From Escherichia phage 172-1, in sequence record NC_028903.1: a stretch of 64,000 nucleotides of DNA. The stretch is one strand, 5' to 3'. The position numbers were made by a program, and so were the translations under genes. Of the stretch, positions 15,501-27,317 are shown piece by piece. The notes beneath the pieces were generated by a model. That model was not told the DNA's origin. It made no database searches and saw only the letters and a program-made list of their open reading frames with translations. Each line of letters opens with the position of its first letter. The first letter of the stretch is position 1.

Positions 15501-15589
15501 TTTTCTATAATGTTATAGATAATGATGTTAACAGTAATGCTGCTATCAATGGGTTAACGATAGAGTTTGCTGTTGGCGGACGGAGATAA
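12572..15589 (+). CDS. large virion protein with multiple Big_2 Ig-like domains
   Basis: 1005 aa; repeated Ig-like segments (VTIRKGGTTTLTAVTG..., ITLSQSDVIVSRGSQYILTATLSPANAPNQNITWTSSN...). Confidence 0.55.
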   Translation: MALYPIKSLGAVGVIADQAPTDLAPNAFTNAINARFVEQRVFKTGGNAPLSYVDEDKDLTPLSFVSMPFDYYSAGNSFLVVGTDKKLYKLTDESLTDISRKVATVTKKASASIKIYPVVSQIVPKESTISMNFNQTKNLEVSLLPADANNTDLVWEVSNSTYGSITVDPDDSKLATLTSFEREGNLVVTISTADDSVVAQIAVNIIDGDSGIFLSQDTVTIRKGGTTTLTAVTGKTPVTWSSSNASIVSVTPNANSLTAVIAANGEGNVTITADNGTKTASCEVVSIPQIDSITLSQSDVIVSRGSQYILTATLSPANAPNQNITWTSSNPNIATVSGTSTQGTINALLAGFTEITATTEEGNRVAVCTVRVDLAGRTMRTSAMAFAAPVSEPIGSQEEEVVTPPESEETVYFAEPTSGIDTSGMYEGNSFYDYSNVNDIEGFARASLFATPLSSVTLDVVSASLDVGEEIVITATASPEGEYSYQWSVDKTGYVSTTSVTGKSIKLVALRKGEVNVTCTVSQMTQKDYDAFDDYPWYHAVISNCAVATTHYETPQVKEFESEYFVDLPGWGEQTVVDNDGNPSVKKFNWKCERVRSFNNRLFALNMREANASGVTTNYPLRLRWSNFANENKAPTLWDDFAYDRVVSSDLASNIVGQTQALENGYAGYIDLADSNGSLIDILPLKDYLFVYTEFETYIGSPTNNTYQPLMFKKLFNDSGILAPECVVEVEGSHFVVTQNDVILHNGATKKSIASNRVKNMLINEVCLVNPLATRVHLHQDKKEVWVLYVGPGEPKESFACTKAAVWNYEFDTWSFRTIPYAQCIGLVDPPVLERGPIWSDFQEITWDDPSIKELVWRKDATNFRQRVTIVGSFLRGFYQVDVGALDYFYDRLNDVVIEKPLEMRLERTGLDFDNVTNEWNQKHINRFRPQTTGSGTYTFEAGGSQFSNEYGHPHTSKTYTIGVDRHVSVRLNHPYLFYNVIDNDVNSNAAINGLTIEFAVGGRR

Positions 15590-15595
15590 CAACAA

Positions 15596-15620
15596 GGGGC
15601 TTCGTGCCCCTTTTATTGTT
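15596..15620 (+). terminator. rho-independent terminator
   Basis: ggggc-ttcg-tgcccc followed by ttttattgtt. Confidence 0.6.
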
Positions 15621-15632
15621 TTGGAGGAACTT

Positions 15633-16601
15633 ATGGGTGCAGGTGGTTTTCGTAAGAACACTGGTCGTAATAACACCACACTCCCGTACAACGTTGGGTT
15701 TCTCAATAATGTACAGGACACAGAAACATATAACGTAGCCGTATATGACGAGCTACAGAAAGTCAGTACAGCTACTAACCAAATGTTCCAAGCTATTGAT
15801 GAGATTCACGATGAGATTGATGTTCGTATCAAAGCTCTTCATGCGATGAATCTACAATTTGATGAGCTTGAGAACAGAATTACCACAGAGATTGAAACAG
15901 CTATCGCAGATATTATAACACAGATGGGGAATCTCTCCACTGAAGATATTTGGGATAATTCTGTTCAACCTCCTGTAAAATTAGAAAGCACTGTATCTGG
16001 CTTTAAGACAAGTATTGAAGGTAACACAACTAAGATTCAAACGGTAGAAGGGATTGTTAACGACCAAGGTCAAGAGATTGCTTTAGTTCAGACAGAGATT
16101 CAAAATATCAATGGAAGCCTCTCTCAGTATATGAAGCTTTCTGAGTATGAAGCTACTTGGGGTGTTAACTCTACGGTCAACGGAAGATACGCTGGGGTCA
16201 AGTTAACTAACAACGGAACAAACAGTCAATTCCAAGTAACAGCTAACAAGTTTATTGTTGGTGATGGCAGCTCTGGTAATACCCCTTTTGTATTTGAAGG
16301 CGGAAGAGCTAGGATGGAATTCGCTGACATAAAGAACGTCAACATCACAACAGCTCAGATTGCCAACGCTAGAATTCAATGGGCACAGATTGATAACGTA
16401 TCTATCTCCAATGCTCAAATTCAGAACTTATCAGCGGATAAAATCACTGCTGGTTCTATGTGGGGTTCTAACTGGAGACTTACTGTTGGGGGTGACTTTG
16501 TTATGGGTGGCACAGGTGGTTCTCAGTTGTGGATGAATGGTAATAGAATAGATTTTTATGATGGGAGTGGAACTCTTCGCATAAGAATAGGGAGTTGGTA
16601 A
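15633..16601 (+). CDS. virion protein, hypothetical
   Basis: listed ORF 15567..16601 trimmed to the ATG at 15633, which has RBS ggagg and lies after the terminator. Confidence 0.45.
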   Translation: MGAGGFRKNTGRNNTTLPYNVGFLNNVQDTETYNVAVYDELQKVSTATNQMFQAIDEIHDEIDVRIKALHAMNLQFDELENRITTEIETAIADIITQMGNLSTEDIWDNSVQPPVKLESTVSGFKTSIEGNTTKIQTVEGIVNDQGQEIALVQTEIQNINGSLSQYMKLSEYEATWGVNSTVNGRYAGVKLTNNGTNSQFQVTANKFIVGDGSSGNTPFVFEGGRARMEFADIKNVNITTAQIANARIQWAQIDNVSISNAQIQNLSADKITAGSMWGSNWRLTVGGDFVMGGTGGSQLWMNGNRIDFYDGSGTLRIRIGSW

Positions 16602-16602
16602 T

Positions 16603-17637
16603 ATGGCGTATGGAATATGGACAAGACCGGTCGGTCCGGGGCCAGCAGCACCTGCTGATATTTACATTGACAGTGGTAGCACATTCCCTCAGTTAAGAAA
16701 CAGGGTCAGTGGTAATTTTTCTTTTAATGGTAACACATGTGATCTACCTATAAGCGGTTGGGATGGAAGTGGTCAGATAGTTGTAGTCCCAACAGGGTCT
16801 GTTGTTTGGGAGAGATACATACCTCCTAATGTAACATCTGATGTGTATTGGCTAACGGATATATCTGTTATTAATAACTCAACCTTCAGAGTTACTATGG
16901 ATTATAATGTAAACGGTTGGGTATTTGATATGGCTTTTAATGTATATCAAATATGGCCTAGAGCTAACAGGAACTATGGAATCACATTCTCCAACTCTGC
17001 TGACTATTTCTCAATCTCTGATTCTGGAGTTGTTGGTCAATGTATTTGGGCTTGGGAGGGTGACATAAATGGTGCTCTTCAAATACCAGATATTGGTGGT
17101 TTTGATATGAGCCGAGCAACTGTCTACGCGAATTGGAGTAACGGCGGAGCAGGTCTGCTATACAACCCATCCAATAGGGTTGTTTATGTGTACCAGAACA
17201 GGTCTCATGATAATGGTAACACAAACCAAACAGGGTACATTGGTGGTGTTAGGATTGCCGTCTTCTGTGATGGTTCGGGAGTACCAACCCACAATGGAGG
17301 TTTAAATATCTTTTCTCCAAATGGGTCTCAGTGTGTTTTTTCTACATATAGAACCCCTTTTAGTGTTGAGGGGTTTATGCCTATGAGTGGTGGTAACACA
17401 TCTTTGGCCTATCCAATGATACCTCTATCTTATGGTGCTGGAGCAATAAGAGGTAAGGCTAGTGGTTGGTATTTTCAACACACAAGATCTCACATGATGA
17501 ATGGCTCTTCTTTTGGTACAGGTTTCGGAAGGATGATTTACTCTTGGAGTAGTCAATATGATTTAGGAGGGGGTGGTGCCCTCGGGTTAAGTATTCCAAT
17601 ATTAGATGCTAGAAAGATATTCAGGAGTATACAATAA
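16603..17637 (+). CDS. virion protein, hypothetical
   Basis: 344-aa ORF, start overlaps the previous stop. Confidence 0.4.
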   Translation: MAYGIWTRPVGPGPAAPADIYIDSGSTFPQLRNRVSGNFSFNGNTCDLPISGWDGSGQIVVVPTGSVVWERYIPPNVTSDVYWLTDISVINNSTFRVTMDYNVNGWVFDMAFNVYQIWPRANRNYGITFSNSADYFSISDSGVVGQCIWAWEGDINGALQIPDIGGFDMSRATVYANWSNGGAGLLYNPSNRVVYVYQNRSHDNGNTNQTGYIGGVRIAVFCDGSGVPTHNGGLNIFSPNGSQCVFSTYRTPFSVEGFMPMSGGNTSLAYPMIPLSYGAGAIRGKASGWYFQHTRSHMMNGSSFGTGFGRMIYSWSSQYDLGGGGALGLSIPILDARKIFRSIQ

Positions 17638-17646
17638 GGAGATATT

Positions 17647-18429
17647 ATGGCAATTAGAATGGGTATCGAAGAACTAGACCCAATGGTACAGCAAGCTTCA
17701 AAGAAGTATGGGATTCCTGCTGCTTTGATTCATGCTGTAATCCAAAGAGAGTCTAGTGGACGTCCTAAAGTAGCCTCTGGAACTGGTCCTGTAGGTCTAA
17801 TGCAGATCAGTAAAGGGTTGGCTAAAGACTATGGATACAAACTAGAAGATAGACTGGACCCAGCAAAGAATATTGACATGGGTGCTCGTTATATCAGAGA
17901 TAACTTAAAAGCTTTTAATGGTGATGTTAAGAAAGCAATGGTTGGTTACTCTGAAGGGACAGGGGGTGCTAGGCAGATGTTTGCTGGTAAGAAAGGGTTT
18001 ACCCCTCAGGCTCTAGACTCAATGAACAATAAACATTTTCTTCCTTTTTACGGTGATGCAGCTTCTCAGATTGCTAACCCAATTGGGGCTTTACAAGCTG
18101 TTCAACCAGCCAATCAGTTTAATCCTGACCTGTTAGATAGAGAGAAGGCTGCACAAGCTCCCACTCAGGCAGAGATTGCTGCTTCTAAGACGGGTGCTTT
18201 AGGTGGTAATCCGGTAGAGTTTTACTCTGATGAAGTACAGGAGGGTGAAGACCAGAAGCCTCAACAGAACTTTGGTAATGCAGTATTAGGAGTAGCTGCT
18301 ATGCTTGCTGGTAAACCTCCTACTTCTCAAACAGTTCAGAGGGCAAGTGCACCTCATGCAGCAGGTTCTCAGTACAGTCCACAAACACAAGCAGTGCTTA
18401 GACGTTTGGCTAGCATTGGTGTTAAGTAA
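17647..18429 (+). CDS. lytic transglycosylase (SLT domain) virion protein
   Basis: ALIHAVIQRESSGRPKVASGTGPVGLMQISKGLAKDYGY matches the SLT catalytic region (ES...GLMQ). Confidence 0.65.
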   Translation: MAIRMGIEELDPMVQQASKKYGIPAALIHAVIQRESSGRPKVASGTGPVGLMQISKGLAKDYGYKLEDRLDPAKNIDMGARYIRDNLKAFNGDVKKAMVGYSEGTGGARQMFAGKKGFTPQALDSMNNKHFLPFYGDAASQIANPIGALQAVQPANQFNPDLLDREKAAQAPTQAEIAASKTGALGGNPVEFYSDEVQEGEDQKPQQNFGNAVLGVAAMLAGKPPTSQTVQRASAPHAAGSQYSPQTQAVLRRLASIGVK

Positions 18430-18448: not shown

Positions 18449-19501
18449 ATGTCTTTATTTGGAAAATCAGCTTCTAGCAAAACCACAGTGGCTCCTTCCT
18501 CTCAGGTTGATGCCCTGCTGAAGCAGATTGTTGCTAATGCTCAGAATATGCAGAACAACGATCAGGGATTTATTTCCCAACAGCTGGCTGGGTTTAATGG
18601 CAACCAACAAGGTGCTCTGAATAACTTAGCAGCTTCTACAACTCAAAAACAATTGGCTGATATGTACACACCTCGTACACAGCAAGGTTTGGACCAACTG
18701 AACTCTCTTGCCAAACAGTATCAGAATATTGTTAATGGTGGCGGTTTAACTGCTGATGGTGTTAACAACTTTAGTAAAGGATTAAATAGCTCAGCTCTTT
18801 CTCAGGCTACTAGCAAAGCAGCTTCTAATGTTTCTCTTGGCAATGGCTCTGATTCAGGCTCTCTCCGTAGGGCTGCGGCTCAAGGGGCGGCTTTGAATGG
18901 TGCTAATACAAATCTATCTCGTACCATCAATGGTAAGAACATGGGAATCAGTGCTCTTCAACAAGACCAGAACTTCCAGAGAGGTTTGCTTGGTGCTCAG
19001 TCTGGTTTAGCTGGACAGAATCTCAATCTTGGTGCTCAAGGTGTTCAGTCAACTCAGCAAGCTATCCAGAATCAACTTATGGCTGGTAATCTACAACAGC
19101 AACAAGCTCAAGCTCAAGCAGATATCAATTGGCAAAACGCTATTGGTTCTCAGCAGTATGGATGGAATCAGCTTAACAACCAGCTTAATGTATTAAACAG
19201 TGTAAGCCCGATGGCTGGATACACAATTAAGAATGCTGCTCCGGGAGTTAATACTGGACAACAGCTCCTAGGTGCTGGTATCACTGGCTTGGGTATTGCA
19301 GGTCGTTTGGGTGCTTTCTCTCCTAACCAACAGACCCAGAATGCTTGGAGTTCCTATAACAACTCAGGTGGGCAGTCTGGTATGGCTGGTCCTATGATTG
19401 GAGGTTCTAATCTTTCTCAACAGAAAGGTCAGTCTAACTGGTTATCCACAACGGGTAATAATATCTTAGGCGGCGTCTTAGGGGCATTCGGAGCAAACTA
19501 A
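18449..19501 (+). CDS. Gln/Asn/Gly-rich low-complexity virion protein
   Basis: 350 aa; paralogous to the next ORF (shared MxLFG..SKTT N-terminus and GFN.NQ..ALNNLA motif). Confidence 0.5.
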   Translation: MSLFGKSASSKTTVAPSSQVDALLKQIVANAQNMQNNDQGFISQQLAGFNGNQQGALNNLAASTTQKQLADMYTPRTQQGLDQLNSLAKQYQNIVNGGGLTADGVNNFSKGLNSSALSQATSKAASNVSLGNGSDSGSLRRAAAQGAALNGANTNLSRTINGKNMGISALQQDQNFQRGLLGAQSGLAGQNLNLGAQGVQSTQQAIQNQLMAGNLQQQQAQAQADINWQNAIGSQQYGWNQLNNQLNVLNSVSPMAGYTIKNAAPGVNTGQQLLGAGITGLGIAGRLGAFSPNQQTQNAWSSYNNSGGQSGMAGPMIGGSNLSQQKGQSNWLSTTGNNILGGVLGAFGAN

Positions 19502-19513
19502 AGGAGATTTAAT

Positions 19514-20482
19514 ATGGCACTTTTCGGAGGCGGGGGTAGTAAGACTACTTCTCAAATGATTCGCCCTGAATACATCCAACAGTATATTGACCAGCTTAAT
19601 CAACAGATTGGTAATACTAGTTCAGGGGATTATGTTTATCGTGACAATGTAGGATTCAATAACAACCAGACAGAAGCTCTTAACAACTTAGCACAATCTG
19701 GTGCCCTAGGGACTCTCTCACAGCAATACATGGATGCAGCAGGTCAAGGGTTGGGTTATCTAGATAATGCCTATAAAGGCTATCAGAGCCTCTCTGGACA
19801 AGGTGGGATTACTGGGGAACAGATTGGTGCTCTTGCTGGTCAACTGTATGATGACGATGCTGTTCAGGCAGCTATTACAGCTAATAATGAACAAGTTCAG
19901 CAGAACCTAGCACGCAACGCTCTTCCTCAGCTAGCTCAGCAGTATGCTGGTCAGCAGGGTTCAGGTGCTCGTATGGCTAAATCTTTTGCTCAAGGTGATG
20001 CTCTGAATCAGATGCAAAGCCAAGCAACAGATATTACTAACAGTGCTTATAACTCGGCTATCAACCAAGCTGAAAGCATTCTCTCTGGTAATAGACAGAA
20101 TCAGGCAGCTGCTCTCTCAGGTCTTTCTACTATTGGTTCTAACCTTTCCAATTTAGGTCAACAAGGTGCTGATCTATCTCAACAACAAATATTAAACCAA
20201 TGGAAGGCTGGGTTGCAGCAACAACAGCAACAACAGAATGAATATGATAATGCCTACCAGAATGCTCAGAACGCAGCTAATTGGGGATGGCAAGATATCA
20301 ACAACCAACTCGGTGCAGCAGGTGTACTTAACGGCGCTCTCGGACAAACTACAACTACTAAAACATCTGGTGGGGGTGGTGGCTTCTTAGGTGGAGCTAT
20401 GAGTGGTGCAGCAGCTGGCTCTTCTTTTGGTCCTTGGGGTGCCTTGGCTGGAGGGGTGATTGGCGGGATGGCTAGTTCTTAA
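19514..20482 (+). CDS. Gln/Asn/Gly-rich low-complexity virion protein (paralog)
   Basis: 322 aa; paralog of 18449..19501. Confidence 0.5.
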   Translation: MALFGGGGSKTTSQMIRPEYIQQYIDQLNQQIGNTSSGDYVYRDNVGFNNNQTEALNNLAQSGALGTLSQQYMDAAGQGLGYLDNAYKGYQSLSGQGGITGEQIGALAGQLYDDDAVQAAITANNEQVQQNLARNALPQLAQQYAGQQGSGARMAKSFAQGDALNQMQSQATDITNSAYNSAINQAESILSGNRQNQAAALSGLSTIGSNLSNLGQQGADLSQQQILNQWKAGLQQQQQQQNEYDNAYQNAQNAANWGWQDINNQLGAAGVLNGALGQTTTTKTSGGGGGFLGGAMSGAAAGSSFGPWGALAGGVIGGMASS

Positions 20483-20495
20483 TTAGGAGATAAAT

Positions 20496-22151
20496 ATGCA
20501 ACAGACAACTTACGCTCAGGTCAGAAGTCGTGACCCGAGAAATACTTTCTATGGTGTTAATCCGGGAGCGGCTTCGGCCTCTCCTTATATGGCTAGACCT
20601 ACTCAGACAGCGGATGTTTCTATGTACCAGCGTCCTGCTGTACCTTCATCTCTCGCAGGTCTTGTCTCTCAGGCAGAAGAAGATCAGAATGCTATGGTGA
20701 ATCCGGGATTCCAGCAACGTCTTATGGAACAACAGAATCAAGGAACCCCAACAAGTCTTCAGGGTATTGACATTGGAGCACCAGCCCCTGTAGCAGCTAA
20801 TCCTAATTTATCTACTGATCAAGGTTTGCAGGATGCTGGACTTATGCCTAGTGACCCTCTTCCGGTGACACCTCCTGCCAAGCCACTAGAAACTGGTCCT
20901 ATGGAGTTTACTCCTTCTCAGGTTGAACAAGCACAAGGTGTTGTTAATACTCTTGCTCAAGGACAAGACACCGGTGACGGAATGGCTGCTGCTACTCGTA
21001 CTAAAGATCAAGAGCGTGTTAACAATGATATCTTGCAAGTTGCAAAAGCTAAAGATCCTTCAGAAGCTTGGAAGAAGTTACAGAAAGAACCTTTCTATCA
21101 GAACTCTAGTTTCTATACAGGTTTAATGGGTGTAGGTCTTTCTATCATGTCAGGTAAATCTCCTATCGAAGCATTCCAGATTGGTCAGGGGATGGCTAAT
21201 CAAGATGAGACTAAAAAGCAACTGGAAGCTAACCGTGATGCTCTGATTGAACAAGGTTTCTCTCAAGACTCAATTGCAGCTGCTATAGCTCAGGGTGATC
21301 CTTCTCTTCTGAAGATGAAAGCTAAAGACCCTCTTCAACAGGAAGCTCTGTATGCTGCTCGTGAAGAACGTCAGAATGCTGAATGGGATAGACGTCAACA
21401 GATTCAAGAGCAGTCTATGCGTGAACGTGCTGAGGAAACTCGTCGTGCTGCTGAAAAGAGAACTGACATGAACTTTGAACGTCAGAAAGAGTTGATTGGT
21501 TATCGTGATAAAGTTAAGGCTGAACGTGCTGAACAAGTTGCTCAGAGTTTTAACTTCCCCACGAAAGAAATTCGTAACGCTCAGAATACAGCTGAAGGTA
21601 CAATTGCTAAGCAGTGGGCAGAGAAAGGTGGCCTGTTTAACCAGTCTAACAAAGACTTGGATTTGGCTGATAAAGCTGTTAAGGACAAGGATTACCAGAC
21701 GGCCCGTTCTGCTTACATGCAGGCTATCATGAACTCCGCAAGGGCTGAAATCGGCTCTACTCGTTCTCTTACTGAAGAAGACTTGGGACATTTTGCAGAA
21801 GACCCATCAATCTTTATCCGTGTAGGTAACAAGTTCGCTCTGAAGTCTGGGTGGCGTCCTACTGATTCTGCTCTTGCTTATGCTCGTAAACAGGCTAACG
21901 TCGGTCATACCTCTGCTATGAAAGGTGTTGCTGATGCTAAGAGAGATACTATCAACGCTTATGTTGGTTCTGGTATGGATAAGAAGAGAGCTACTGCATT
22001 GGTTAACCGTGCAATTCCTTCTGGCGGTTTCTATGACCCTCTCGGTGTTTTCTCTGATGAAGCAGAAGATTATGTTGGTGGTGCAGCAACCAACCCTAAA
22101 CTGAACGGTGCTTTATCAGCTGTCGAAGACACTAGCTGGTTCACGCAATAA
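20496..22151 (+). CDS. internal virion protein, hypothetical
   Basis: 551-aa ORF in the late block. Confidence 0.45.
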   Translation: MQQTTYAQVRSRDPRNTFYGVNPGAASASPYMARPTQTADVSMYQRPAVPSSLAGLVSQAEEDQNAMVNPGFQQRLMEQQNQGTPTSLQGIDIGAPAPVAANPNLSTDQGLQDAGLMPSDPLPVTPPAKPLETGPMEFTPSQVEQAQGVVNTLAQGQDTGDGMAAATRTKDQERVNNDILQVAKAKDPSEAWKKLQKEPFYQNSSFYTGLMGVGLSIMSGKSPIEAFQIGQGMANQDETKKQLEANRDALIEQGFSQDSIAAAIAQGDPSLLKMKAKDPLQQEALYAAREERQNAEWDRRQQIQEQSMRERAEETRRAAEKRTDMNFERQKELIGYRDKVKAERAEQVAQSFNFPTKEIRNAQNTAEGTIAKQWAEKGGLFNQSNKDLDLADKAVKDKDYQTARSAYMQAIMNSARAEIGSTRSLTEEDLGHFAEDPSIFIRVGNKFALKSGWRPTDSALAYARKQANVGHTSAMKGVADAKRDTINAYVGSGMDKKRATALVNRAIPSGGFYDPLGVFSDEAEDYVGGAATNPKLNGALSAVEDTSWFTQ

Positions 22152-22171: not shown

Positions 22172-22180
22172 TAATGTATA
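22172..22180 (+). promoter_or_regulatory. TAATGTATA promoter-like motif
   Basis: exact 9-mer 38 nt upstream of ATG 22219. Confidence 0.35.
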
Positions 22181-22218
22181 TAGGGGGTAGGACATTTTTA
22201 TTTATAAAAGGAGACGTT

Positions 22219-25200
22219 ATGGCTAACATTAAACCGTGGGAAGAAGCTTCCAAAGCTCCTGCGTATCTGAATGCCTCTCCGGAGCAGCAAGCTCAAATGA
22301 GAGAACAATATAAGGCAGCAGGTGGCTCTATTCCTGAGGAACAGCCAGTAGCACAACCACAACAAGAAGAACGTGGTGTTATAGGTGAGTTTGCTCAAGG
22401 TGTGTCAAATGCTCTTCAATCTGGTGGTGCAAATATTGCAGCTAGTGCTGCTAAAGGTATTGGTGGTTTAGTTGAGATTGGTGAGAATCTAGCTGGAGCA
22501 CAAACTAGTTATGGAAAGCGTATCCAAGAGAACTCTCAGAACCTTCTGAAAGAACGTATGGATAAGATTGAGGATGGGATTGGTAAAACTGCTGGGCAAT
22601 ATGCTGGCGTTGTTGGTGATATTGGTTTGACTGTTGCTAACCCATTAGCTGCCGCTGCTATCATTGCAGGTCGTGAGACAGGTCGTGCATATGCAGACCA
22701 AACTCCTGAAGAGGGAGAAGATAAGTCTGTTCTGGATGCCGCTCTAGTTGGTGGTGCTAACTATGCAGCTCAGAGAATCCTTCCGGGTGCTGTTGGTACA
22801 GCTGAGTCTACACTTGGTCGTATTGGTCAGAACGTTGCTAGTAACGCAGTGGCTGGTGCTAAAGGTGGTGCTCTTGTAGGTGCTGCTGAAGCTCAGAACA
22901 AACATGGTGATGACACAACCTTTGCTAATGTCTTAGAAGGTGCTATTGAAGAAGGCGCTATGGGTGCTGCATTCGGTGGTGCAGTTGGTGGTGTTCATGG
23001 TTTGATTAGTCGTCCAGATTCTACTGTCTTCAAGAATACTCCAGAGTATGCGAAGACTGATATTGCTGCTGATGATGAACTGATTCGTAGTGCTAAGAAT
23101 GTTGATGAACTGAAAGAAGCTTATTCTAAAGCTGAAACTGCTAACGCTGCTTCCGCTCTTAATCTTCTGGATGAGAATGGATTCCGTATTACTGATGCTG
23201 TTGCTGTAGACTCTCCTGCTGCTCAGCGTATTCTTAATACAGACCAAGCTCGTGCTGAGAAAGCTGCTTCTGCTCAGAAAGAGCATTCTAACATTCCAGG
23301 ACTCAATCCTTTGGCTTCTCCTGCTAAGGTTCGTGGTAAAGCATTCGCTGATAATGAGCACAATCAGAAGCAAGCTGTCGCTATGAAAGATGCAATGGCT
23401 GACTACACCAAGGATAACACGAAAGCTCTTACAGATGTTCTAGATAACCTAGACCGTGAATTAACTTCTCTTAGAGCATCTGGACACTTCACCGGTAGTC
23501 CACTTGACGTTAAGAATCGCACACAAGCTGACCGTGATTTCATTGATGCTTACAAGACTTTCTACAACGAGGCGAATCGATTCAAAGCTCGTGATGGTGA
23601 AGACTTTAATAACTTTGTAGAGAAAGCTGCTGAGCTACAGAAGATGGCTGATAACGTTTCTCCAGAGATGAAGAAAGCTATTGGCGGGTTGAAGAAACTG
23701 AAAGGTATGCCTGAAGGTTTTAATCCCATTCAAGATGCCTACACTCTGAACAATACAGCTAAATTCATGAGCAACCAAGACCGTGGTTGGACTTCCCTGA
23801 CTGATGATGGCTTCCGTGAGACTTCTTCTCCTAGTCTGGTTATGAACACCCTTGGTGCTGCTAAGTATGCTATAAACCGCTTCTCTTCTCAGCGTGCTCG
23901 CTCTCAACGTGTTAAGCAACAAGAGGCTAACAGTGAAGCTATCCGCTCTCTGGCTCGTGGTGATTTGGAAGTTGCTCGTGCTAAATCTACTGCTGATGAA
24001 GCTCGTGCTAAAATGGAAGAAGAACCAGTTGTTGATGACATTAAATTCAAGACGCAAAATGACGTAGAAACCGAACCGGTTCGGGAGCCTTCTTCTAGTA
24101 CTGTGACGGAAGAAAATCTTCCTTCTTCTGCTCCTCAAGAATCTCCTCTTACAGCTCGTGATTTAGTTGCGCAAAGACGTGCTATCCGTCAGGCTGAACA
24201 GCGTCGTGCTGAAGAAGAGGCAGCTGCTGCTCAAGAAGCTCCGGTTGAACAGGCTCCACAGGCTGAACCACTCCCTGCTCGTAATCCTTTAGAGGAACGT
24301 CGTGCAATGGAACAGCAACGTGCTCAAGAAGAGGCCGCACAGGCTCCAGAACCAACCGTAGAGGAACCAACAGCCAAAGCTGAGCCATTACCTGCTCGTG
24401 CTCCTAAAGCTCCTGAGGAAGCTGTACAGGACGTTAAACCGGAAAGCGGTATAGAGTACCTAGCTGCTATGTCAAGTACTGCTCGTCAAGTTGCTAGAGA
24501 TCGTGCAACACGTTTTGCTAAATCCTTATACTCTAAGGCTGCTAAGGCTAAAGCTACTGCTGAAAACTTCTTAGCTTACAAAGGCGACCCTTTGGAGTTG
24601 ATGCGTCGTATTCGTCGGGAAGATAATGCTATCAACACTGAACGTCATGAAGAGATGGCTCGTAATCAGTTAGCTTCTCAGCAAGGTATTGCTACTGCTA
24701 AGAACAACACTGTACGAACTAATTTTGCTGAATGGGTTAAGGAACGTGGTCTGCCAGAAGACATTGCTACTAAGGCATTACGTGCTGAAGAGAAAGGTTT
24801 AGGTGGGAACGTGACTAACTTAGATAGTCTGAAACGTCGTGCTGAGAGATTGTATCAGAAGCAGCGTGAGGATGAGTTTGATAGGCTGTACCAAGAAGCT
24901 CTGGAAGAGAACAAAGCTTTCGATAAGAAGGATGCTCCTAAATTGGTTGACCAGAAGAAAGAGCTTCAGTCTGAGATTGATACTTTGATTGATTCAGAAC
25001 CTTTACGTCCTGCTCAGAAAGATGCTATGCGCAAGCTGATGAATGATTATGTAGATGGGAAGTTTAAATCTTCAGAGAAGGCTGGTAGAGAAGAGGCTTT
25101 GGAAGTTGGTCAGATGAAGGATGTTTGGGATGGGTTTATTAACACCTATAACAGAGAAGTGAATGCCTTCAACAAAGCTAACAAGAACTCTCAATACGAA

Positions 25201-26640
25201 GCTGCTGCTAAACACTTGCAGGCTCGTGAAGAACGTCTTGCTACTCTGAGAAATAAAGCTCAGGCTCGTTCAGATGCTAAAGCTGCTGTTGAAAATGAAC
25301 GTAAAACTCTAGAGGCTATTGCAGCTCAGAAGAGTGAGATTGAGAAGATGATGGAAGGTTTACCTAAGCCTGTTCGTGAAGCTCAGGAATCTCGTACATT
25401 GAAACAGTTGGCTGCTCACCATGATAAGAACTCTCCAGTTCCTCCAGAGAAGTTCCGTAGTTACATTGAACGTATCCATAACGCCGAGTCAGATTACCTT
25501 GACCGTCAGCGTCGTTTAACTGATGCAGAGGAAGATGCTCGTCAGGCTAAGTGGAATAAGATGTATGAGCAAGCGGAAGAGATGGACCGTAAATTTGATA
25601 TAGACAAAAGAGTTAAACGCAGTGAAGAGCTTAAAGCGGCTCAGAAGCGTGAGAATGATCTCATGGCAGTACAACGTCAACGTGACGACATTCATCGTCG
25701 CCTGATGCATACTTTGGAAGATAAAGGCATATCTAAAGAGGATGCTGAAGCATTTGCTGGTTCCTACATGGATAACCGTTATGCACTTCTTGATAAGCCT
25801 ATGACTCCTACTGAACATCAGAATGCTCGTTCTCGTATCGAAGCTGATGTTGAGAAGTTTGCTAAGAAGTACGAATCAATGACCCCTATCGAGAAAGAGA
25901 TTGTTAAGATTACTGGAGATACTGAAGGTAAGCTTGATAACTTGGATGCGGATACTAGGAAGGCTGTTGAGGAGGCTCAGAAGGTTGACTCTGATATTAA
26001 GAAACTGCAAGAGGAAGAGTTGGAGATGGAGAAGATTCGTTCTGCTCTGCCTGACGATGAAAAATCTCAAGCAAATTCTGATATCTTGGAAAGTATTAAA
26101 CAGCAGGAAGAAGTCTTTGCTGATAAAGTAGAGAAAGCTTTCTTGAGTGGGAAGAGCTTGGATGAGTTGGCTAGTGTGGCTGAAGTTTTAGACAGGGTTC
26201 ATGGTGCAGACAAGGCTGGTAACAACCGTCGCTTTGTACGTGCATTGCAGACTGCTGCTGAAAACAAGAAGAAGTATGGTGATAATCCGGTAGCTTGGTT
26301 TAGTGCTGATGATTATTCTGCTATTGCTAAACTTGGTGCTTCTTCCGCAGGTGGTAACAAATCTAGAGCACTGGAGAAGATCTTTGGTTCTACAGCTGAA
26401 CAAGCTAAGAGTAAGTTGCTTGGTAGGGATGATGTAGCGAAGATGAGACGTGTAATTGAAGAGAACCCTGATGTTAAGATTCCTTCTTACAAGACAACGA
26501 ATCGTACTGAGTACTTGCAGTTCTTGGAGAAGTTTAATGACGAAGGGAAGCCGAAGATTAAACGTGGCTCATTGTCAGAGAAGCTTGAACGCAGTAAGCG
26601 TCAATCGAGACTCCGTGTAAGAGTTCGACCTAAGGAGTGA
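22219..26640 (+). CDS. large internal virion (ejection or core) protein
   Basis: listed ORF trimmed to the ATG at 22219 with RBS aaaggaga; 1473 aa, Ala/Glu/Lys-rich coiled-coil with internal repeats. Confidence 0.55.
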   Translation: MANIKPWEEASKAPAYLNASPEQQAQMREQYKAAGGSIPEEQPVAQPQQEERGVIGEFAQGVSNALQSGGANIAASAAKGIGGLVEIGENLAGAQTSYGKRIQENSQNLLKERMDKIEDGIGKTAGQYAGVVGDIGLTVANPLAAAAIIAGRETGRAYADQTPEEGEDKSVLDAALVGGANYAAQRILPGAVGTAESTLGRIGQNVASNAVAGAKGGALVGAAEAQNKHGDDTTFANVLEGAIEEGAMGAAFGGAVGGVHGLISRPDSTVFKNTPEYAKTDIAADDELIRSAKNVDELKEAYSKAETANAASALNLLDENGFRITDAVAVDSPAAQRILNTDQARAEKAASAQKEHSNIPGLNPLASPAKVRGKAFADNEHNQKQAVAMKDAMADYTKDNTKALTDVLDNLDRELTSLRASGHFTGSPLDVKNRTQADRDFIDAYKTFYNEANRFKARDGEDFNNFVEKAAELQKMADNVSPEMKKAIGGLKKLKGMPEGFNPIQDAYTLNNTAKFMSNQDRGWTSLTDDGFRETSSPSLVMNTLGAAKYAINRFSSQRARSQRVKQQEANSEAIRSLARGDLEVARAKSTADEARAKMEEEPVVDDIKFKTQNDVETEPVREPSSSTVTEENLPSSAPQESPLTARDLVAQRRAIRQAEQRRAEEEAAAAQEAPVEQAPQAEPLPARNPLEERRAMEQQRAQEEAAQAPEPTVEEPTAKAEPLPARAPKAPEEAVQDVKPESGIEYLAAMSSTARQVARDRATRFAKSLYSKAAKAKATAENFLAYKGDPLELMRRIRREDNAINTERHEEMARNQLASQQGIATAKNNTVRTNFAEWVKERGLPEDIATKALRAEEKGLGGNVTNLDSLKRRAERLYQKQREDEFDRLYQEALEENKAFDKKDAPKLVDQKKELQSEIDTLIDSEPLRPAQKDAMRKLMNDYVDGKFKSSEKAGREEALEVGQMKDVWDGFINTYNREVNAFNKANKNSQYEAAAKHLQAREERLATLRNKAQARSDAKAAVENERKTLEAIAAQKSEIEKMMEGLPKPVREAQESRTLKQLAAHHDKNSPVPPEKFRSYIERIHNAESDYLDRQRRLTDAEEDARQAKWNKMYEQAEEMDRKFDIDKRVKRSEELKAAQKRENDLMAVQRQRDDIHRRLMHTLEDKGISKEDAEAFAGSYMDNRYALLDKPMTPTEHQNARSRIEADVEKFAKKYESMTPIEKEIVKITGDTEGKLDNLDADTRKAVEEAQKVDSDIKKLQEEELEMEKIRSALPDDEKSQANSDILESIKQQEEVFADKVEKAFLSGKSLDELASVAEVLDRVHGADKAGNNRRFVRALQTAAENKKKYGDNPVAWFSADDYSAIAKLGASSAGGNKSRALEKIFGSTAEQAKSKLLGRDDVAKMRRVIEENPDVKIPSYKTTNRTEYLQFLEKFNDEGKPKIKRGSLSEKLERSKRQSRLRVRVRPKE

Positions 26641-26649
26641 TAAAAGAAA

Positions 26650-26683
26650 AGCCCCAACCGAAAGGAAGGGGCTTTATTTATTT
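26650..26683. terminator. bidirectional rho-independent terminator at the convergence point
   Basis: hairpin agcccc...ggggct flanked by A-run on one side and T-run on the other; ends both convergent blocks. Confidence 0.6.
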
Positions 26684-26919
26684 CTAGATTTTCTTGTAAG
26701 TGATAGTTCCTTCTTTAACAGCTTTATCATAAGCCGCTTTGAACTTTTTCATCATATCAATTTTGCTCTGTTTTATCTTTTCAAAAACCATCAAATTCGT
26801 CATACATCCCAATTCTCTTCAGAAGTCTGGATGTTCATCTTCAAAGCATCCTGAGATGCCTCCGTAGAACCAATCTGATTTACTGCCAAGGATAACAACT
26901 TCTTCATTCATATACCCTC

Positions 26920-27081
26920 CTAGATTGTGTTTATAAAATTAGTAAGTTTCTCTTCGCTTTCATCAAAAGCTTTTCCAGCTGCTTCCATCTCCCAAGTCTC
27001 GGCATTGTCAATAAAGCTCTGAGCTTCTAATAGATCGTGGATTAAGTCGAAGAGTTTATTTTTATCTGCTTGTGTGATCAT
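26920..27081 (-). CDS. small ORF (53 aa), hypothetical
   Basis: ATG with aggaa RBS; reads MITQADKNKLFDLIHDLLEAQSF...; not in the ORF track (under 60 aa). Confidence 0.3.
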   Translation of the reverse strand: MITQADKNKLFDLIHDLLEAQSFIDNAETWEMEAAGKAFDESEEKLTNFINTI

Positions 27082-27089
27082 GTCAGTTC

Positions 27090-27317
27090 CTAGATTAAAT
27101 CGTAATACTGAATAATGTCAGAGAGTTTGAACTCTCGAATCTCATCTTTCTCTATATCTATCGCTGTCATAATCCAACAAGGTTTGCCACCGTTATGAAA
27201 ACGGGAGCTAGCAACGGAGGTTCGGAGTGGAATAACGGACCGGTCAGCAACCTCGCCTCTCCAATTGCGATAGCGAAAGCGAAGCACTTGTTGCGTAGAT
27301 TTTTGATCATCACTCAT
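27090..27317 (-). CDS. hypothetical protein
   Basis: listed ORF trimmed to the internal Met (MSDDQK...) just downstream of the HNH gene stop. Confidence 0.35.
   Translation of the reverse strand: MSDDQKSTQQVLRFRYRNWRGEVADRSVIPLRTSVASSRFHNGGKPCWIMTAIDIEKDEIREFKLSDIIQYYDLI

What the first reader, a model, noticed from the sequence alone, without database searches (positions are those of the whole stretch)
18449..20482. Tandem pair of Gln/Asn/Gly-rich low-complexity proteins inside the virion gene block
The two adjacent ORFs (350 and 322 aa) share an N-terminus (MSLFGKSASSKTT / MALFGGGGSKTT) and a GFN-x-NQ-x-x-ALNNLA motif, then dissolve into Q/N/G/S/A-rich sequence with poly-Q runs. They lie between the SLT-domain protein and large internal proteins, so they are probably ejected or internal virion components; the composition resembles prion-like or disordered phase-separating domains.
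Basis: seen in the sequence. Interest (0 to 1): 0.5.

Follow-up and report, generated by a model that had tools for sequence, protein, structure and literature searches.

The report
Paralogous Kuravirus DNA-ejection proteins gp21/gp22
The two Gln/Asn/Gly-rich genes are the already-known ejection proteins gp21 and gp22 of SU10/phiEco32-type coliphages: conserved helical proteins, carried in the phage head and expelled at infection, that probably help build the DNA channel through the bacterial envelope rather than acting as prion-like disordered filler.

Summary
ORFs 18449-19501 (350 aa) and 19514-20482 (322 aa) exist as described, are 62% Q/N/G/S/A and only 7-9% charged, and are true paralogs (BLASTP E 4e-13; hhalign E 1e-33; shuffled nulls far lower). 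The window is a Kuravirus (99.6% to phage PE006). The ORFs are orthologs (about 95-97% identity) of SU10 gp21 and gp22.

The "disordered, prion-like" reading is not supported:
- dN/dS is 0.04-0.06.
- Q/N positions are conserved position by position.
- AlphaFold predicts an all-helical protein, with the poly-Q inside its most confident long helix.

New here:
- gp22 is homologous to Bruynoghevirus Pa223 gp56/LUZ24 gp53, a proposed outer-membrane channel (hhalign 98.5%, E 3e-15).
- The gp21/gp22 duplication is old and retained in distant relatives.
- Homology to P22 gp7 or T7 gp14 is not shown.

Most likely both insert through C-terminal glycine-zipper segments as the membrane-proximal part of the ejectosome. 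That step is inferred.

Verdict: already known kind, low interest.

The parts
17647..18429 (+). gp20-like ejection protein with a lytic transglycosylase (SLT) domain. It is the first gene of the five-gene ejection cassette.
   Evidence: Pfam SLT PF01464, E 1.7e-24. phrog_12507, E 9e-176. SU10 gp20 is a virion protein lost on genome release.
18449..19501 (+). ORF A, 350 aa, ortholog of SU10 gp21 (Kuravirus ejection protein, A-type paralog).
   Evidence: 94.9% aa identity to SU10_021. phrog_4287, E 1.7e-116. dN/dS 0.047-0.062. SU10 gp21 found in virions by MS.
18590..18631 (+). Shared GFNxNQxxALNNLA motif of ORF A (residues 48-61).
   Evidence: Read directly from the translation. Q53, A56 and L57 are nearly invariant in the family alignment A1.
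18959..19198 (+). Q/N-richest 80-residue stretch of ORF A (residues 171-250, 35 Q/N). It includes QQQQ and most of the conserved NWQNAxGxQQxGWNQLNNQLNVLN block.
   Evidence: window count. (invariant N208, L210, G213, Q217, N230, N244, N247).
19262..19321 (+). Conserved glycine-zipper-like hydrophobic segment of ORF A (residues 272-291, QLLGAGITGLGIAGRLGAFS). Candidate membrane-inserting helix.
   Evidence: Highest Kyte-Doolittle 19-residue window, 1.26. G275 and G285 are invariant; A276, G277, L281, G282, G288 and F290 are nearly invariant.
19454..19498 (+). Second Gly-rich hydrophobic C-terminal segment of ORF A (residues 336-350, NILGGVLGAFGAN).
   Evidence: It is conserved in close family members and variable in distant ones.
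19514..20482 (+). ORF B, 322 aa, ortholog of SU10 gp22 ('DNA injection/ejection protein', B-type paralog). Homolog of Bruynoghevirus Pa223 gp56/LUZ24 gp53.
   Evidence: 96.6% aa identity to SU10_022. phrog_4287, E 2.8e-108. hhalign against the LUZ24 gp53 family: 98.5%, E 2.7e-15, 260 columns, with null controls. dN/dS 0.041-0.056.
19652..19693 (+). Shared GFNxNQxxALNNLA motif of ORF B (residues 47-60).
   Evidence: Q52 is invariant; G47, N49 and A55 are nearly invariant in A2. Q52 is also nearly invariant across all three families.
20093..20338 (+). Predicted single long alpha-helix of ORF B (residues 194-275). It holds the Q/N-richest stretch and the QQQQQQQ run (residues 235-241, nt 20216-20236).
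   Evidence: AlphaFold2 with a 108-sequence alignment: helix 194-275, pLDDT 77-83 for residues 231-260. Helical periodicity of family hydropathy, p about 0.05.
20366..20479 (+). Thr-rich to poly-Gly to glycine-zipper C-terminal tail of ORF B (residues 285-322, GGGGGFLGGAMSGAAAGSSFGPWGALAGGVIGGMASS). Candidate membrane-inserting segment.
   Evidence: Many invariant Gly positions (G287, G290, G294, G298, G302, G306, P307, G313, G317). It aligns with the C-terminal segment of Pa223 gp56, where MemBrain predicted transmembrane helices at 278-291 and 296-311. Only sub-threshold Pfam glycine-zipper hits, E 0.08.
20496..22151 (+). gp23-like ejection protein, 551 aa. Candidate periplasmic-tunnel (gp15-like) component by size and position only.
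   Evidence: phrog_12130, full length. SU10 gp23 is a virion protein lost on genome release. No detectable similarity to LUZ24 gp51 and no PDB relative.
22219..26640 (+). gp24-like ejection protein, 1473 aa from the likely true start at 22219 (the mechanical ORF starts at 22174). Candidate inner-membrane/cytoplasmic (gp16-like) component by size and position only.
   Evidence: The phrog_14629 match begins at residue 16 of the 1488-aa ORF. An AAGGAGA Shine-Dalgarno site precedes the ATG at 22219. SU10 gp24 is 1473 aa and a virion protein. No similarity to LUZ24 gp50 by BLASTP.

Best explanation
ORF A and ORF B are the gp21 and gp22 ejection proteins of a Kuravirus (the SU10/phiEco32 group).

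Established by experiments on 95-97% identical orthologs: both proteins are made late, packaged inside the prolate head together with the SLT enzyme gp20 and the larger gp23 and gp24, and expelled through the tail when the genome is released.

Shown here: they are anciently duplicated paralogs of one family (phrog_4287). They are under strong purifying selection and are predicted to be almost entirely alpha-helical, with a Gly-rich, weakly hydrophobic C-terminal tail. gp22 is homologous to the 313-aa Bruynoghevirus protein Pa223 gp56/LUZ24 gp53, which has been proposed to be the outer-membrane channel of that phage's ejectosome.

Inferred mechanism:
1. After the tail needle leaves, gp21 and gp22 exit first, unfolded or as extended helices, through the nozzle.
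2. They oligomerise, possibly as a hetero-oligomer, since both copies are always retained.
3. They insert their C-terminal glycine-zipper segments into the outer membrane, or the membrane-proximal end of the channel.
4. This forms the first section of the conduit. gp20 cuts the peptidoglycan, and gp23 and gp24 extend the conduit to and through the inner membrane.

The Q/N/G/A-rich, nearly uncharged composition is a class-wide trait of small channel-forming ejection proteins. P22 gp7, N4 gp52 and LUZ24 gp53 share it. It probably serves unfolded transit followed by polar helix-helix packing, not permanent disorder.
For: Identity of the phage and orthology:
- The window is 99.6% identical to Escherichia phage PE006 and 92-97% identical to many Kuraviruses.
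- The gene-by-gene match to SU10_020 to SU10_024 is shown.

Virion presence and ejection, in the ortholog:
- MS coverage is 53.4% for gp21 and 49.1% for gp22 (PMC4281155).

Paralogy: BLASTP E 4e-13; hhalign 99.9%, E 1.2e-33; nulls score 26 or less; both hit phrog_4287.

The pair is retained in distant relatives:
- A 334-aa A-type gene (hhalign E 3.9e-56) sits next to a 322-aa B-type gene (43% identity), within an SLT/498-aa/1113-aa cassette beside SU10-type capsid and portal genes.
- A second contig shows the same pair.

Link to Pa223 gp56/LUZ24 gp53:
- hhalign of A2 against A3 gives 98.5%, E 2.7e-15, over 260 columns and nearly end to end.
- Controls score 26 (column-shuffled), 36 (locally shuffled) and 38 (reversed), against 108 for the real comparison.
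- LUZ24 gp53 independently hits phrog_4287 at E 2e-10, and bridging metagenomic proteins hit both PHROGs.
- Pa223 gp56 and LUZ24 gp53 are 311/313 identical.
- Pa223 gp56 is a virion protein with predicted C-terminal TM helices and is proposed to be the outer-membrane channel (preprint 10.1101/2025.06.11.659172).

Structured, not drifting:
- dN/dS is 0.04-0.06.
- The alignments have invariant and nearly invariant columns.
- Q/N positional conservation is 45% in distant members.
- The AF2 model is all-helical with pLDDT 59.6 and 85 residues at 70-90.

Gene order: small to medium to large, with a detachable peptidoglycan hydrolase, matches the general ejectosome scheme (review PMC8954989).

Class-wide composition: P22 gp7 has QNGSA 58% and 10.5% charged; LUZ24 gp53 has 53% and 13.7%; N4 gp52 has 48% and 12.7%. 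N4 gp52 forms channels in lipid bilayers (PMC13434306).
Against: - No experiment localises gp21 or gp22 after ejection. The outer-membrane-channel role of the Pa223 homolog is itself only a bioinformatic proposal.
- The Gly-zipper segments are only weakly hydrophobic (best 19-residue Kyte-Doolittle mean 1.26 for A and 0.94 for B). They reach only sub-threshold scores against Pfam glycine-zipper models.
- ORF A does not match the Bruynoghevirus family directly (hhalign 5.7%). The link is only through ORF B.
- At 322-350 aa the proteins are much larger than the established outer-membrane ejection proteins T7 gp14 (196 aa), P22 gp7 (229 aa) and N4 gp52 (150 aa). No significant similarity to any of them was found.
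- The monomer AF2 models are of low to marginal confidence, and fold searches returned nothing significant.
- Helical periodicity is significant for most B segments but only one A segment.
- The downstream genes show no similarity to their supposed Bruynoghevirus counterparts.
Confidence: 0.6

Rival explanations
1. The proteins are intrinsically disordered, prion-like or phase-separating Q/N-rich polypeptides. They would form a condensate or gel inside the capsid or at the entry site, with function residing in composition rather than in a defined structure.
For: - Both proteins meet the Q/N-rich window criterion (35 and 31 Q/N per 80 aa), have 62% QNGSA and very low charge.
- The AF2 monomer with the family-only alignment had pLDDT 39.5.
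- SU10 cryo-EM showed no resolved density for ejection proteins in the head.
Against: - Sequence positions are conserved, not just composition: 51-64% mean column identity with many invariant columns, and Q/N residues are 45% identical in homologs below 60% identity.
- dN/dS is 0.04-0.06, as for the adjacent enzyme.
- Both proteins lie on the folded side of the charge-hydropathy plot.
- With a deeper alignment AF2 gives continuous helices, and its best confidence falls exactly on the Q/N-rich, poly-Q region.
- Proline is scarce (3-6 residues) and Leu/Ile/Val/Met residues are regularly spaced. Helical periodicity is significant in four of five B segments.
Confidence: 0.1
2. gp21/gp22 are ejected channel components, but they form the periplasmic extension of the nozzle (the tunnel) rather than the outer-membrane pore. 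In Kuraviruses the 28-nm nozzle built from tail proteins may itself cross the outer membrane, leaving gp21/gp22 to bridge to the inner membrane, or to insert into the inner membrane.
For: [quoted passage not shown]
- The predicted long helices (82 residues, about 12 nm) fit an elongated tube.
- The proteins are larger than known outer-membrane ejection proteins.
- In N4 the tunnel protein gp51 also has membrane activity.
Against: - The only detectable homolog with an assigned role, Pa223 gp56, is proposed as the outer-membrane component. It lies upstream of a separately identified tunnel protein.
- gp23 (551 aa) is the better size match for tunnel proteins, which range from 431 to 982 aa.
- The gene order small-medium-large usually follows the order outer membrane, tunnel, inner membrane.
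Confidence: 0.2
3. The proteins are internal head components whose main job is inside the virion, and they leave passively with the DNA. Possible jobs are organising or spacing the packaged genome in the prolate head, plugging the portal barrel, or chaperoning gp23/gp24.
For: - SU10 shows density in the portal barrel that could be DNA or ejection proteins.
- P22 ejection proteins occupy capsid volume and stabilise the portal barrel.
Against: - The proteins are nearly uncharged (net charge about +0.02 per residue), so DNA binding is unlikely.
- The conserved Gly-zipper tails and the homology to a proposed channel protein are not explained by this reading.
- Retention of both paralogs next to an SLT enzyme across distant relatives suggests an envelope-penetration module.
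Confidence: 0.1

Closest known systems
SU10 gp21 and gp22 (also phiEco32 gp23/gp24-region proteins; PHROG phrog_4287 'DNA ejection protein')
   Same: They are orthologs at 94.9% and 96.6% amino-acid identity, with identical lengths (350 and 322 aa) and the same position between SLT gp20 and gp23/gp24. SU10 gp21/gp22 are shown by MS to be virion proteins released with the genome.
   Different: Nothing of substance differs. Only a few substitutions separate them. Neither the SU10 papers nor the GenBank records assign a structural role to these two proteins or comment on their paralogy.
Bruynoghevirus Pa223 gp56 / LUZ24 gp53 (phrog_7477), proposed outer-membrane channel of the ejectosome
   Same: - ORF B is homologous (profile-profile 98.5%, E 2.7e-15, 260 columns, with controls).
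- The size is similar (313 against 322 aa).
- Both are helical with a Thr-rich to poly-Gly to Gly-zipper C-terminus.
- Both are virion proteins.
- Both lie upstream of a roughly 500-aa and a 1000-aa or larger ejection gene.
   Different: - Kuraviruses carry two diverged copies (A-type and B-type), while Bruynogheviruses carry one.
- ORF A is not directly detectable against this family.
- LUZ24 gp53 has an extra N-terminal segment of about 22-25 residues.
- Kuraviruses have a separate SLT ejection protein.
- The downstream genes are not detectably related.
P22 gp7 (Pfam PF25688), small ejection protein of P22-like phages
   Same: - The composition is very similar (QNGSA 58%, charged 10.5%).
- The C-terminal glycine-zipper ends in a nearly identical PWGAxxGGxIGG motif.
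- It is the first gene of a small-medium-large ejection cassette.
   Different: - It is shorter (229 aa).
- No significant homology was found: hhalign scores of 30-34 are inside the null range, and none of 108 superfamily members hits PF25688.
- gp7 has an OpdA-cleaved 20-residue propeptide (annotation).
T7 gp14 and N4 gp52/DEV small ejection protein (outer-membrane pore formers)
   Same: They share the functional class proposed here: small, helical, membrane-active proteins that leave the virion first. They also share the gene order with a tunnel protein and a large inner-membrane protein, and N4 gp52 has a Q/N/G-rich composition.
   Different: There is no detectable sequence similarity. They are about half the size (150-196 aa). 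Their pore activity and localisation are shown experimentally for T7 gp14 and N4 gp52 but not for the Kuravirus proteins.

Membership tests
Kuravirus ejection proteins gp21/gp22 (phrog_4287) | Significant full-length sequence match to the family | tested here: met
   phrog_4287 E 1.7e-116 for A and 2.8e-108 for B. 94.9% and 96.6% identity to SU10 gp21/gp22.
Kuravirus ejection proteins gp21/gp22 (phrog_4287) | Position in the late operon between the SLT protein gp20 and gp23/gp24 | tested here: met
   The same order appears in a distant relative.
Kuravirus ejection proteins gp21/gp22 (phrog_4287) | Present in virions and lost on genome release | not testable with these tools
   Shown for the SU10 orthologs by MS and SDS-PAGE (PMC4281155, PMC9509320), not for this isolate.
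Pa223 gp56 / LUZ24 gp53 family (phrog_7477; proposed outer-membrane channel) | Sequence homology to the family profile | tested here: met
   ORF B family: hhalign 98.5%, E 2.7e-15, with shuffled and reversed nulls scoring 38 or less against 108, and a cross-PHROG hit. ORF A is linked only transitively (5.7%; 99.9% to B).
Pa223 gp56 / LUZ24 gp53 family (phrog_7477; proposed outer-membrane channel) | C-terminal Gly-rich predicted transmembrane segments | tested here: inconclusive
   Conserved Gly-zipper tails are present and align with the Pa223 segments predicted as TM. Hydrophobicity is modest (Kyte-Doolittle 0.94-1.26). No TM predictor was available.
Pa223 gp56 / LUZ24 gp53 family (phrog_7477; proposed outer-membrane channel) | Oligomeric hollow channel inserting in the outer membrane | not testable with these tools
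   Only monomer AF2 was available. The Pa223 channel is itself an AlphaFold3 nonamer prediction.
P22 gp7 family (Pfam PF25688) | Match to the Pfam model at or above threshold | tested here: not met
   No hit at E 0.1 or below for A or B. PF25688 is not among the 25 most-matched families listed for the 108 superfamily members scanned at E 1 or below. The model does detect the P22 gp7 C-terminus at E 4.5e-18.
P22 gp7 family (Pfam PF25688) | Profile-profile homology | tested here: inconclusive
   hhalign scores of 30-34 (E 3e-4 to 1e-3) are limited to 16-49 columns and lie within the null range. The gp7 profile had very low diversity (Neff 1.1).
T7 gp14-like outer-membrane ejection proteins | Sequence similarity to T7 gp14 | tested here: not met
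   hhalign probability 0.1% for all three family profiles.
T7 gp14-like outer-membrane ejection proteins | Size of about 180-240 aa | tested here: not met
   The ORFs are 350 and 322 aa, against the 181-240 aa range in the review table.
T7 gp14-like outer-membrane ejection proteins | First gene of a small-to-medium-to-large ejection cassette | tested here: met
   350/322 aa, then 551 aa, then about 1473 aa, preceded by a separate SLT protein. The scheme is described.
T7 gp14-like outer-membrane ejection proteins | Outer-membrane localisation and pore activity | not testable with these tools
   Requires fractionation or lipid-bilayer recordings.
Prion-like / Q/N-rich disordered domains | At least 30 Q/N in an 80-residue window (criterion cited from memory: Michelitsch and Weissman 2000) | tested here: met
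   35 for A (residues 171-250) and 31 for B (residues 195-274).
Prion-like / Q/N-rich disordered domains | Intrinsic disorder, with composition conserved but not positions | tested here: not met
   - Helices are predicted across the region, with the highest pLDDT there.
- Both proteins lie on the folded side of the charge-hydropathy plot.
- Q/N residues are conserved position by position.
- dN/dS is 0.04-0.06.
Prion-like / Q/N-rich disordered domains | Amyloid formation or self-templating, or condensate formation | not testable with these tools
   Needs experiments.
Pfam glycine-zipper families (PF05433, PF13441, PF13488) | Score above the gathering threshold | tested here: not met
   The best result for the ORF B tail is E 0.08 at 13.3 bits, against a cutoff of 24.2. 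Only 5-7 of 108 members give weak hits, all with E 0.02 or higher.

The most novel reading that the evidence does not exclude
The Q/N-rich, almost uncharged helices of gp21/gp22 may be a functional adaptation and not just a compositional quirk. On this reading they let the proteins travel unfolded through the narrow tail. The proteins would then self-assemble by polar-zipper (prion-like, templated) helix packing into a hetero-oligomeric gp21:gp22 channel at the outer membrane. That would be a conditionally folding 'refold-on-arrival' pore, and its two ancient paralogs would alternate in the ring. The same principle would then explain the shared composition of otherwise unrelated small ejection proteins (P22 gp7, N4 gp52, Pa223 gp56).
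Probability: 0.15. Interest if true: 0.55.

Novelty: already known. Interest (0 to 1): 0.2.

Why it matters
The practical value is annotation. Many GenBank Kuravirus records still call gp21 "hypothetical protein" and gp22 variously "DNA injection protein" or "hypothetical". Both can be labelled as paralogous ejection proteins of one family.

The homology between Kuravirus gp22 and Bruynoghevirus gp56 ties the ejection cassettes of two related podovirus lineages together. It also gives a testable candidate for the membrane-proximal part of the SU10 "nozzle extension", which the structural study could not resolve.

The observation that small ejection proteins of unrelated podoviruses share a Q/N/G/A-rich, low-charge composition may help to spot such genes in metagenomic phages.

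None of this changes current understanding of phage DNA delivery.

Tried and rejected
- Pfam scans of both ORFs gave no family. Scans of the C-terminal fragments gave only sub-threshold glycine-zipper hits.
- PDB sequence searches found no relative. This held for both single proteins and for the A2 and A3 profiles, and for gp23.
- AF2 with the B-family alignment alone gave pLDDT 39.5 and was unusable. A 108-sequence three-family alignment raised it to 59.6.
- Foldseek against PDB and BFVD then gave nothing significant. The best PDB E-value was 1.4. The best BFVD hit was a 314-aa protein at E 3e-3 with TM 0.24.
- hhalign against T7 gp13/14/15, P22 gp14/7/20/16, LUZ24 gp52/54/55 and N4 gp51/52 was all at noise level, apart from a borderline P22 gp7 signal.
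- I built a P22 gp7 family profile from 54 distinct IMG/VR sequences. It was too uniform (86% identity or more) to settle the question.
- phmmer of P22 gp7 against all 368 retrieved proteins gave only weak C-terminal matches.
- BLASTP of gp23 and gp24 against their positional LUZ24 counterparts showed no similarity.
- Longer superfamily members (453-930 aa) carry no Pfam domain in their extra regions.
- A search for the chromosomal relative in complete E. coli genomes found no match.
- The contexts of two remote homologs were on contigs too short to be informative.
- One preprint on P22 in situ ejectosome assembly (10.64898/2026.09.03.749273) appeared in the search results but could not be opened.
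Full report
**1. What is in the sequence**

The two ORFs are exactly as reported. ORF A runs 18449-19501 on the + strand and encodes 350 aa. ORF B runs 19514-20482 on the + strand and encodes 322 aa. No other ORF of 60 aa or more overlaps the interval in any frame. Each is preceded by a strong Shine-Dalgarno site, and so are the flanking genes.

They share the N-terminus (MSLFGKSASSKTT / MALFGGGGSKTT) and the GFNxNQxxALNNLA motif (A residues 48-61, B residues 47-60).

Their composition is unusual for this genome:
- Q+N+G+S+A is 62.6% in A and 61.5% in B, against 36-43% in the neighbours.
- Charged residues are 6.9% and 9.0%.
- There is no Cys or His and very little Pro.
- The poly-Q runs are short: QQQQ in A; QQQ and QQQQQQQ in B.

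**2. The resemblance between the ORFs is homology, not composition**

- BLASTP with compositional adjustment aligns 271 residues at 32% identity, E 4e-13.
- Profiles built from 38 and 46 family members (A1, A2) align over 278 columns at 99.9% probability, E 1.2e-33.
- Forty column-shuffled versions of the partner alignment never scored above 25.8, against 242 for the real one. The reversed alignment scored 23.8.
- Both proteins fall in one PHROG, phrog_4287 "DNA ejection protein" (E 1.7e-116 and 2.8e-108).

The proteins therefore do not "dissolve" after the N-terminal motif. They are paralogs along almost their whole length.

**3. Where the window comes from, and what is already known**

The region is 99.6% identical to Escherichia phage PE006 and 92-97% identical to dozens of 75-78-kb E. 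coli/Shigella podoviruses classified in Kuravirus, subfamily Gordonclarkvirinae.

ORF A is 94.9% identical in protein to SU10_021. ORF B is 96.6% identical to SU10_022. The flanking genes correspond to SU10_020 (SLT), SU10_023 and SU10_024.

For SU10 there is direct evidence:
- Shotgun MS of phage preparations detected gp20, gp21 (35.9 kDa, 53.4% coverage), gp22 (33.3 kDa, 49.1%), gp23 and gp24 (PMC4281155).
[quoted passage not shown] It found no resolved density for them in the head (PMC9509320).

**4. Is it disordered or prion-like?**

As a matter of composition, yes. The richest 80-residue windows contain 35 (A) and 31 (B) Q/N residues. That passes the classical Q/N-rich criterion of at least 30 per 80, a threshold I cite from memory.

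Every other test points to a conserved structure:

(a) Selection. Against SU10 and SGF2 orthologs, dN/dS is 0.047-0.062 for A and 0.041-0.056 for B. The neighbouring SLT enzyme gives 0.040-0.056.

(b) Positional conservation.
- The family alignments reach homologs of 32-45% identity and still have 17 and 34 invariant columns. An example is the block NWQNAxGxQQxGWNQLNNQLNVLNSVSPMAGYT.
- In homologs below 60% identity, Q/N positions are 45% identical. Gly positions are 52-55% and hydrophobic positions 50-54% identical.

(c) Charge-hydropathy. Both proteins lie on the folded side of the plot.

(d) Structure prediction.
- With the B-family alignment alone, AlphaFold2 gave a poor model (pLDDT 39.5).
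- With a 108-sequence alignment spanning three related families (A4), it gave pLDDT 59.6, with 85 residues at 70-90.
- The architecture is all-helical: H19-34, H50-61, H64-95, H101-111, H114-144, H151-190 and a single helix 194-275.
- The highest confidence (77-83) is at residues 231-260. That is on the poly-Q run and the Q/N-richest stretch.
- Only the Gly-rich tail 276-322 is unresolved.

(e) Periodicity. Family-averaged hydropathy has significant alpha-helical periodicity in four of five B segments, but in only one of three A segments. This last test gives mixed support.

**5. Wider relatives**

An exhaustive profile search with the B family found 410 cluster representatives at E 1e-3 or better, and 62 at E 1e-10 or better. 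Most are 300-430 aa and matched end to end. The sampled ones belong to phrog_4287, and several also hit phrog_7477.

phrog_7477 is the family of LUZ24 gp53. That protein is 311/313 identical to Pa223 gp56. The evidence for homology with ORF B is:
- The B-family profile aligns with a 40-member LUZ24 gp53 family profile (A3) over 260 columns, nearly end to end, at 98.5% probability, E 2.7e-15.
- The controls were: column-shuffled maximum 26, shuffled within 30-column blocks maximum 36, reversed 38, real 108.
- LUZ24 gp53 also hits phrog_4287 on its own at E 2e-10.

The A family does not reach this family directly. It is linked only through B.

Pa223 gp56 is an MS-confirmed virion protein. MemBrain predicts transmembrane helices at 278-291 and 296-311. 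Its authors propose it as the outer-membrane channel of the ejectosome (T7 gp14-like), lying upstream of the tunnel protein gp54 (505 aa) and the gp16-like gp53 (1055 aa) (preprint 10.1101/2025.06.11.659172). Those predicted helices align with the Thr-rich to poly-Gly to Gly-zipper tail of ORF B.

**6. The duplication is old and both copies are kept**

In a relative whose B-type protein is only 43% identical, the order is SLT (291 aa), then an A-type protein (334 aa; hhalign E 3.9e-56 to the A family), then B-type (322 aa), then 498 aa, then 1113 aa. This cassette lies next to SU10-type capsid and portal genes.

A second short contig shows the same A-then-B pair. Several long metagenomic contigs carry members of both families. 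Bruynogheviruses have a single copy.

Retention of both paralogs suggests non-redundant roles. A hetero-oligomer is one possibility, but that is inference.

**7. Comparison with the classical small ejection proteins**

T7 gp14 and N4 gp52 show no detectable similarity.

P22 gp7 is intriguing but unproven:
- Its composition is almost the same (QNGSA 58%, charged 10.5%).
- Its tail, SSTPWGAAIGGGIGLLGSLF, resembles ORF B's SSFGPWGALAGGVIGGMASS.
- However, hhalign scores of 30-34 fall inside my null range.
- The gp7 profile I could build was too uniform to help.
- Neither ORF hits Pfam PF25688 (P22_gp7), and it is not among the families matched by the 108 superfamily members.

I therefore do not file these proteins under P22 gp7 or T7 gp14.

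What they share with that class is the working scheme described in the review PMC8954989:
- The first, smallest gene of the cassette encodes a helical membrane-active protein that leaves first and forms the outer-membrane pore.
- It is followed by a tunnel protein and then by a large inner-membrane/cytoplasmic protein.
- The peptidoglycan hydrolase is a movable module. Here it is a separate protein, gp20.

N4 gp52 has been shown to form channels in lipid bilayers (PMC13434306). The Q/N/G-rich, low-charge composition recurs in N4 gp52 (QN 21%), P22 gp7 (18%) and LUZ24 gp53 (16%). It therefore looks like a property of the class, not a peculiarity of this phage.

**8. Most likely mechanism**

Shown:
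- Both genes are paralogs under strong constraint.
- ORF B is homologous to Pa223 gp56.
- The orthologs are packaged in the virion and released with the genome.

Inferred:
- After the SU10-type nozzle forms and the needle leaves, gp21/gp22 exit in an extended state.
- They oligomerise and insert their glycine-zipper tails to form the membrane-proximal section of the conduit.
- gp20 cuts the peptidoglycan, and gp23 and gp24 complete the path.

Weak points:
- The Gly-zipper segments are only weakly hydrophobic and sub-threshold against Pfam glycine-zipper models.
- The role of the Pa223 homolog is itself only predicted.

I put 0.9 on "ejection proteins" and about 0.5 on "membrane-inserting first segment of the channel".

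The alternatives are listed with their tests in the rival explanations: a periplasmic tunnel role, a purely intracapsid role, and a genuinely disordered condensate.

**9. Verdict**

The feature is already known in kind and in near-identical sequence. The additions from this work are modest:
- the explicit gp21/gp22 paralogy and its age;
- the controlled homology of gp22 to Bruynoghevirus gp56;
- the note that this composition is class-wide.

Interest is low.

Noticed in passing
L086:1-20969 (E. coli assembly GCA_023211535.1, contig DAHCAP010000002.1, 389,554 bp, range 204317-225285): A distant relative of the Kuravirus structural and ejection module lies inside a 389-kb bacterial contig. It carries SU10-type capsid and portal genes, terminase, and the SLT/A-type/B-type/498-aa/1113-aa cassette. 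This suggests a prophage or otherwise integrated relative of a phage group regarded as strictly lytic. Similar B-type proteins occur on a 317-kb Enterobacter cloacae contig (P0042) and in Enterobacter mori (P0039). No match was found in 5,426 complete E. coli genomes. Integrase and att sites were not examined.
   Followed up: partly
window 15567-16601 and 22174-26640: Two mechanically listed ORFs are probably too long at the 5' end. The tail-needle (gp18-like) gene most likely starts at the ATG at 15633, which has a GGAGGA Shine-Dalgarno site; the PHROG match starts at residue 23 and SU10 gp18 is 322 aa. The gp24-like gene most likely starts at the ATG at 22219, which has an AAGGAGA site; the PHROG match starts at residue 16 and SU10 gp24 is 1473 aa.
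   Followed up: yes
window 16603-17637: A 344-aa Gly/Ser/aromatic-rich DUF6453 protein (PF20051, E 2.3e-24; phrog_1265 'membrane protein') sits between the tail needle gene and the ejection cassette. Its SU10 ortholog gp19 is listed as not detected in virions. This is a non-structural gene in the middle of the structural operon, and its role is unknown.
   Followed up: no
L005:1370-2059 (P22 gene 7), L091:22072-22524 (N4 gp52), L003:8258-9199 (LUZ24 gp53): Small ejection proteins of unrelated podovirus lineages share a Q/N/G/A/S-rich, low-charge composition (QNGSA 48-58%, charged 10-14%). P22 gp7 and ORF B end in a nearly identical PWGAxxGGxIGG glycine-zipper motif, although no homology could be demonstrated.
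   Followed up: partly
L003:8258-9199 (LUZ24 gp53) versus window 19514-20482: The Bruynoghevirus homolog has an extra N-terminal segment of about 22-25 residues before the conserved GG-(S/K)-TT motif. That motif forms the very N-terminus of the Kuravirus proteins. P22 gp7 is annotated as losing its first 20 residues to the host OpdA protease. Whether LUZ24 gp53 is processed in the same way is unknown.
   Followed up: no
P0275, P0276, P0284, P0359, P0363 (metagenomic proteins): Some superfamily members are 536-930 aa long. Most have the gp22-like module matched at the N-terminus; in P0363 the match lies near the C-terminus (709-779). The additional region has no Pfam match. They may be fusions of the small ejection protein with the next cassette component.
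   Followed up: partly
window about 26640-27300: Gene orientation switches from + (late structural and ejection genes) to - strand here, and the GC skew changes sign at the same place. This is as expected for the phiEco32-type genome layout.
   Followed up: no
PMC9509320 Supplementary Table 1 versus KM044272 annotation: The SU10 supplementary table lists gp23 as 515 aa. The GenBank CDS (23951-25606) and this window's ortholog both encode 551 aa. This is probably a typographical error in the table.
   Followed up: yes
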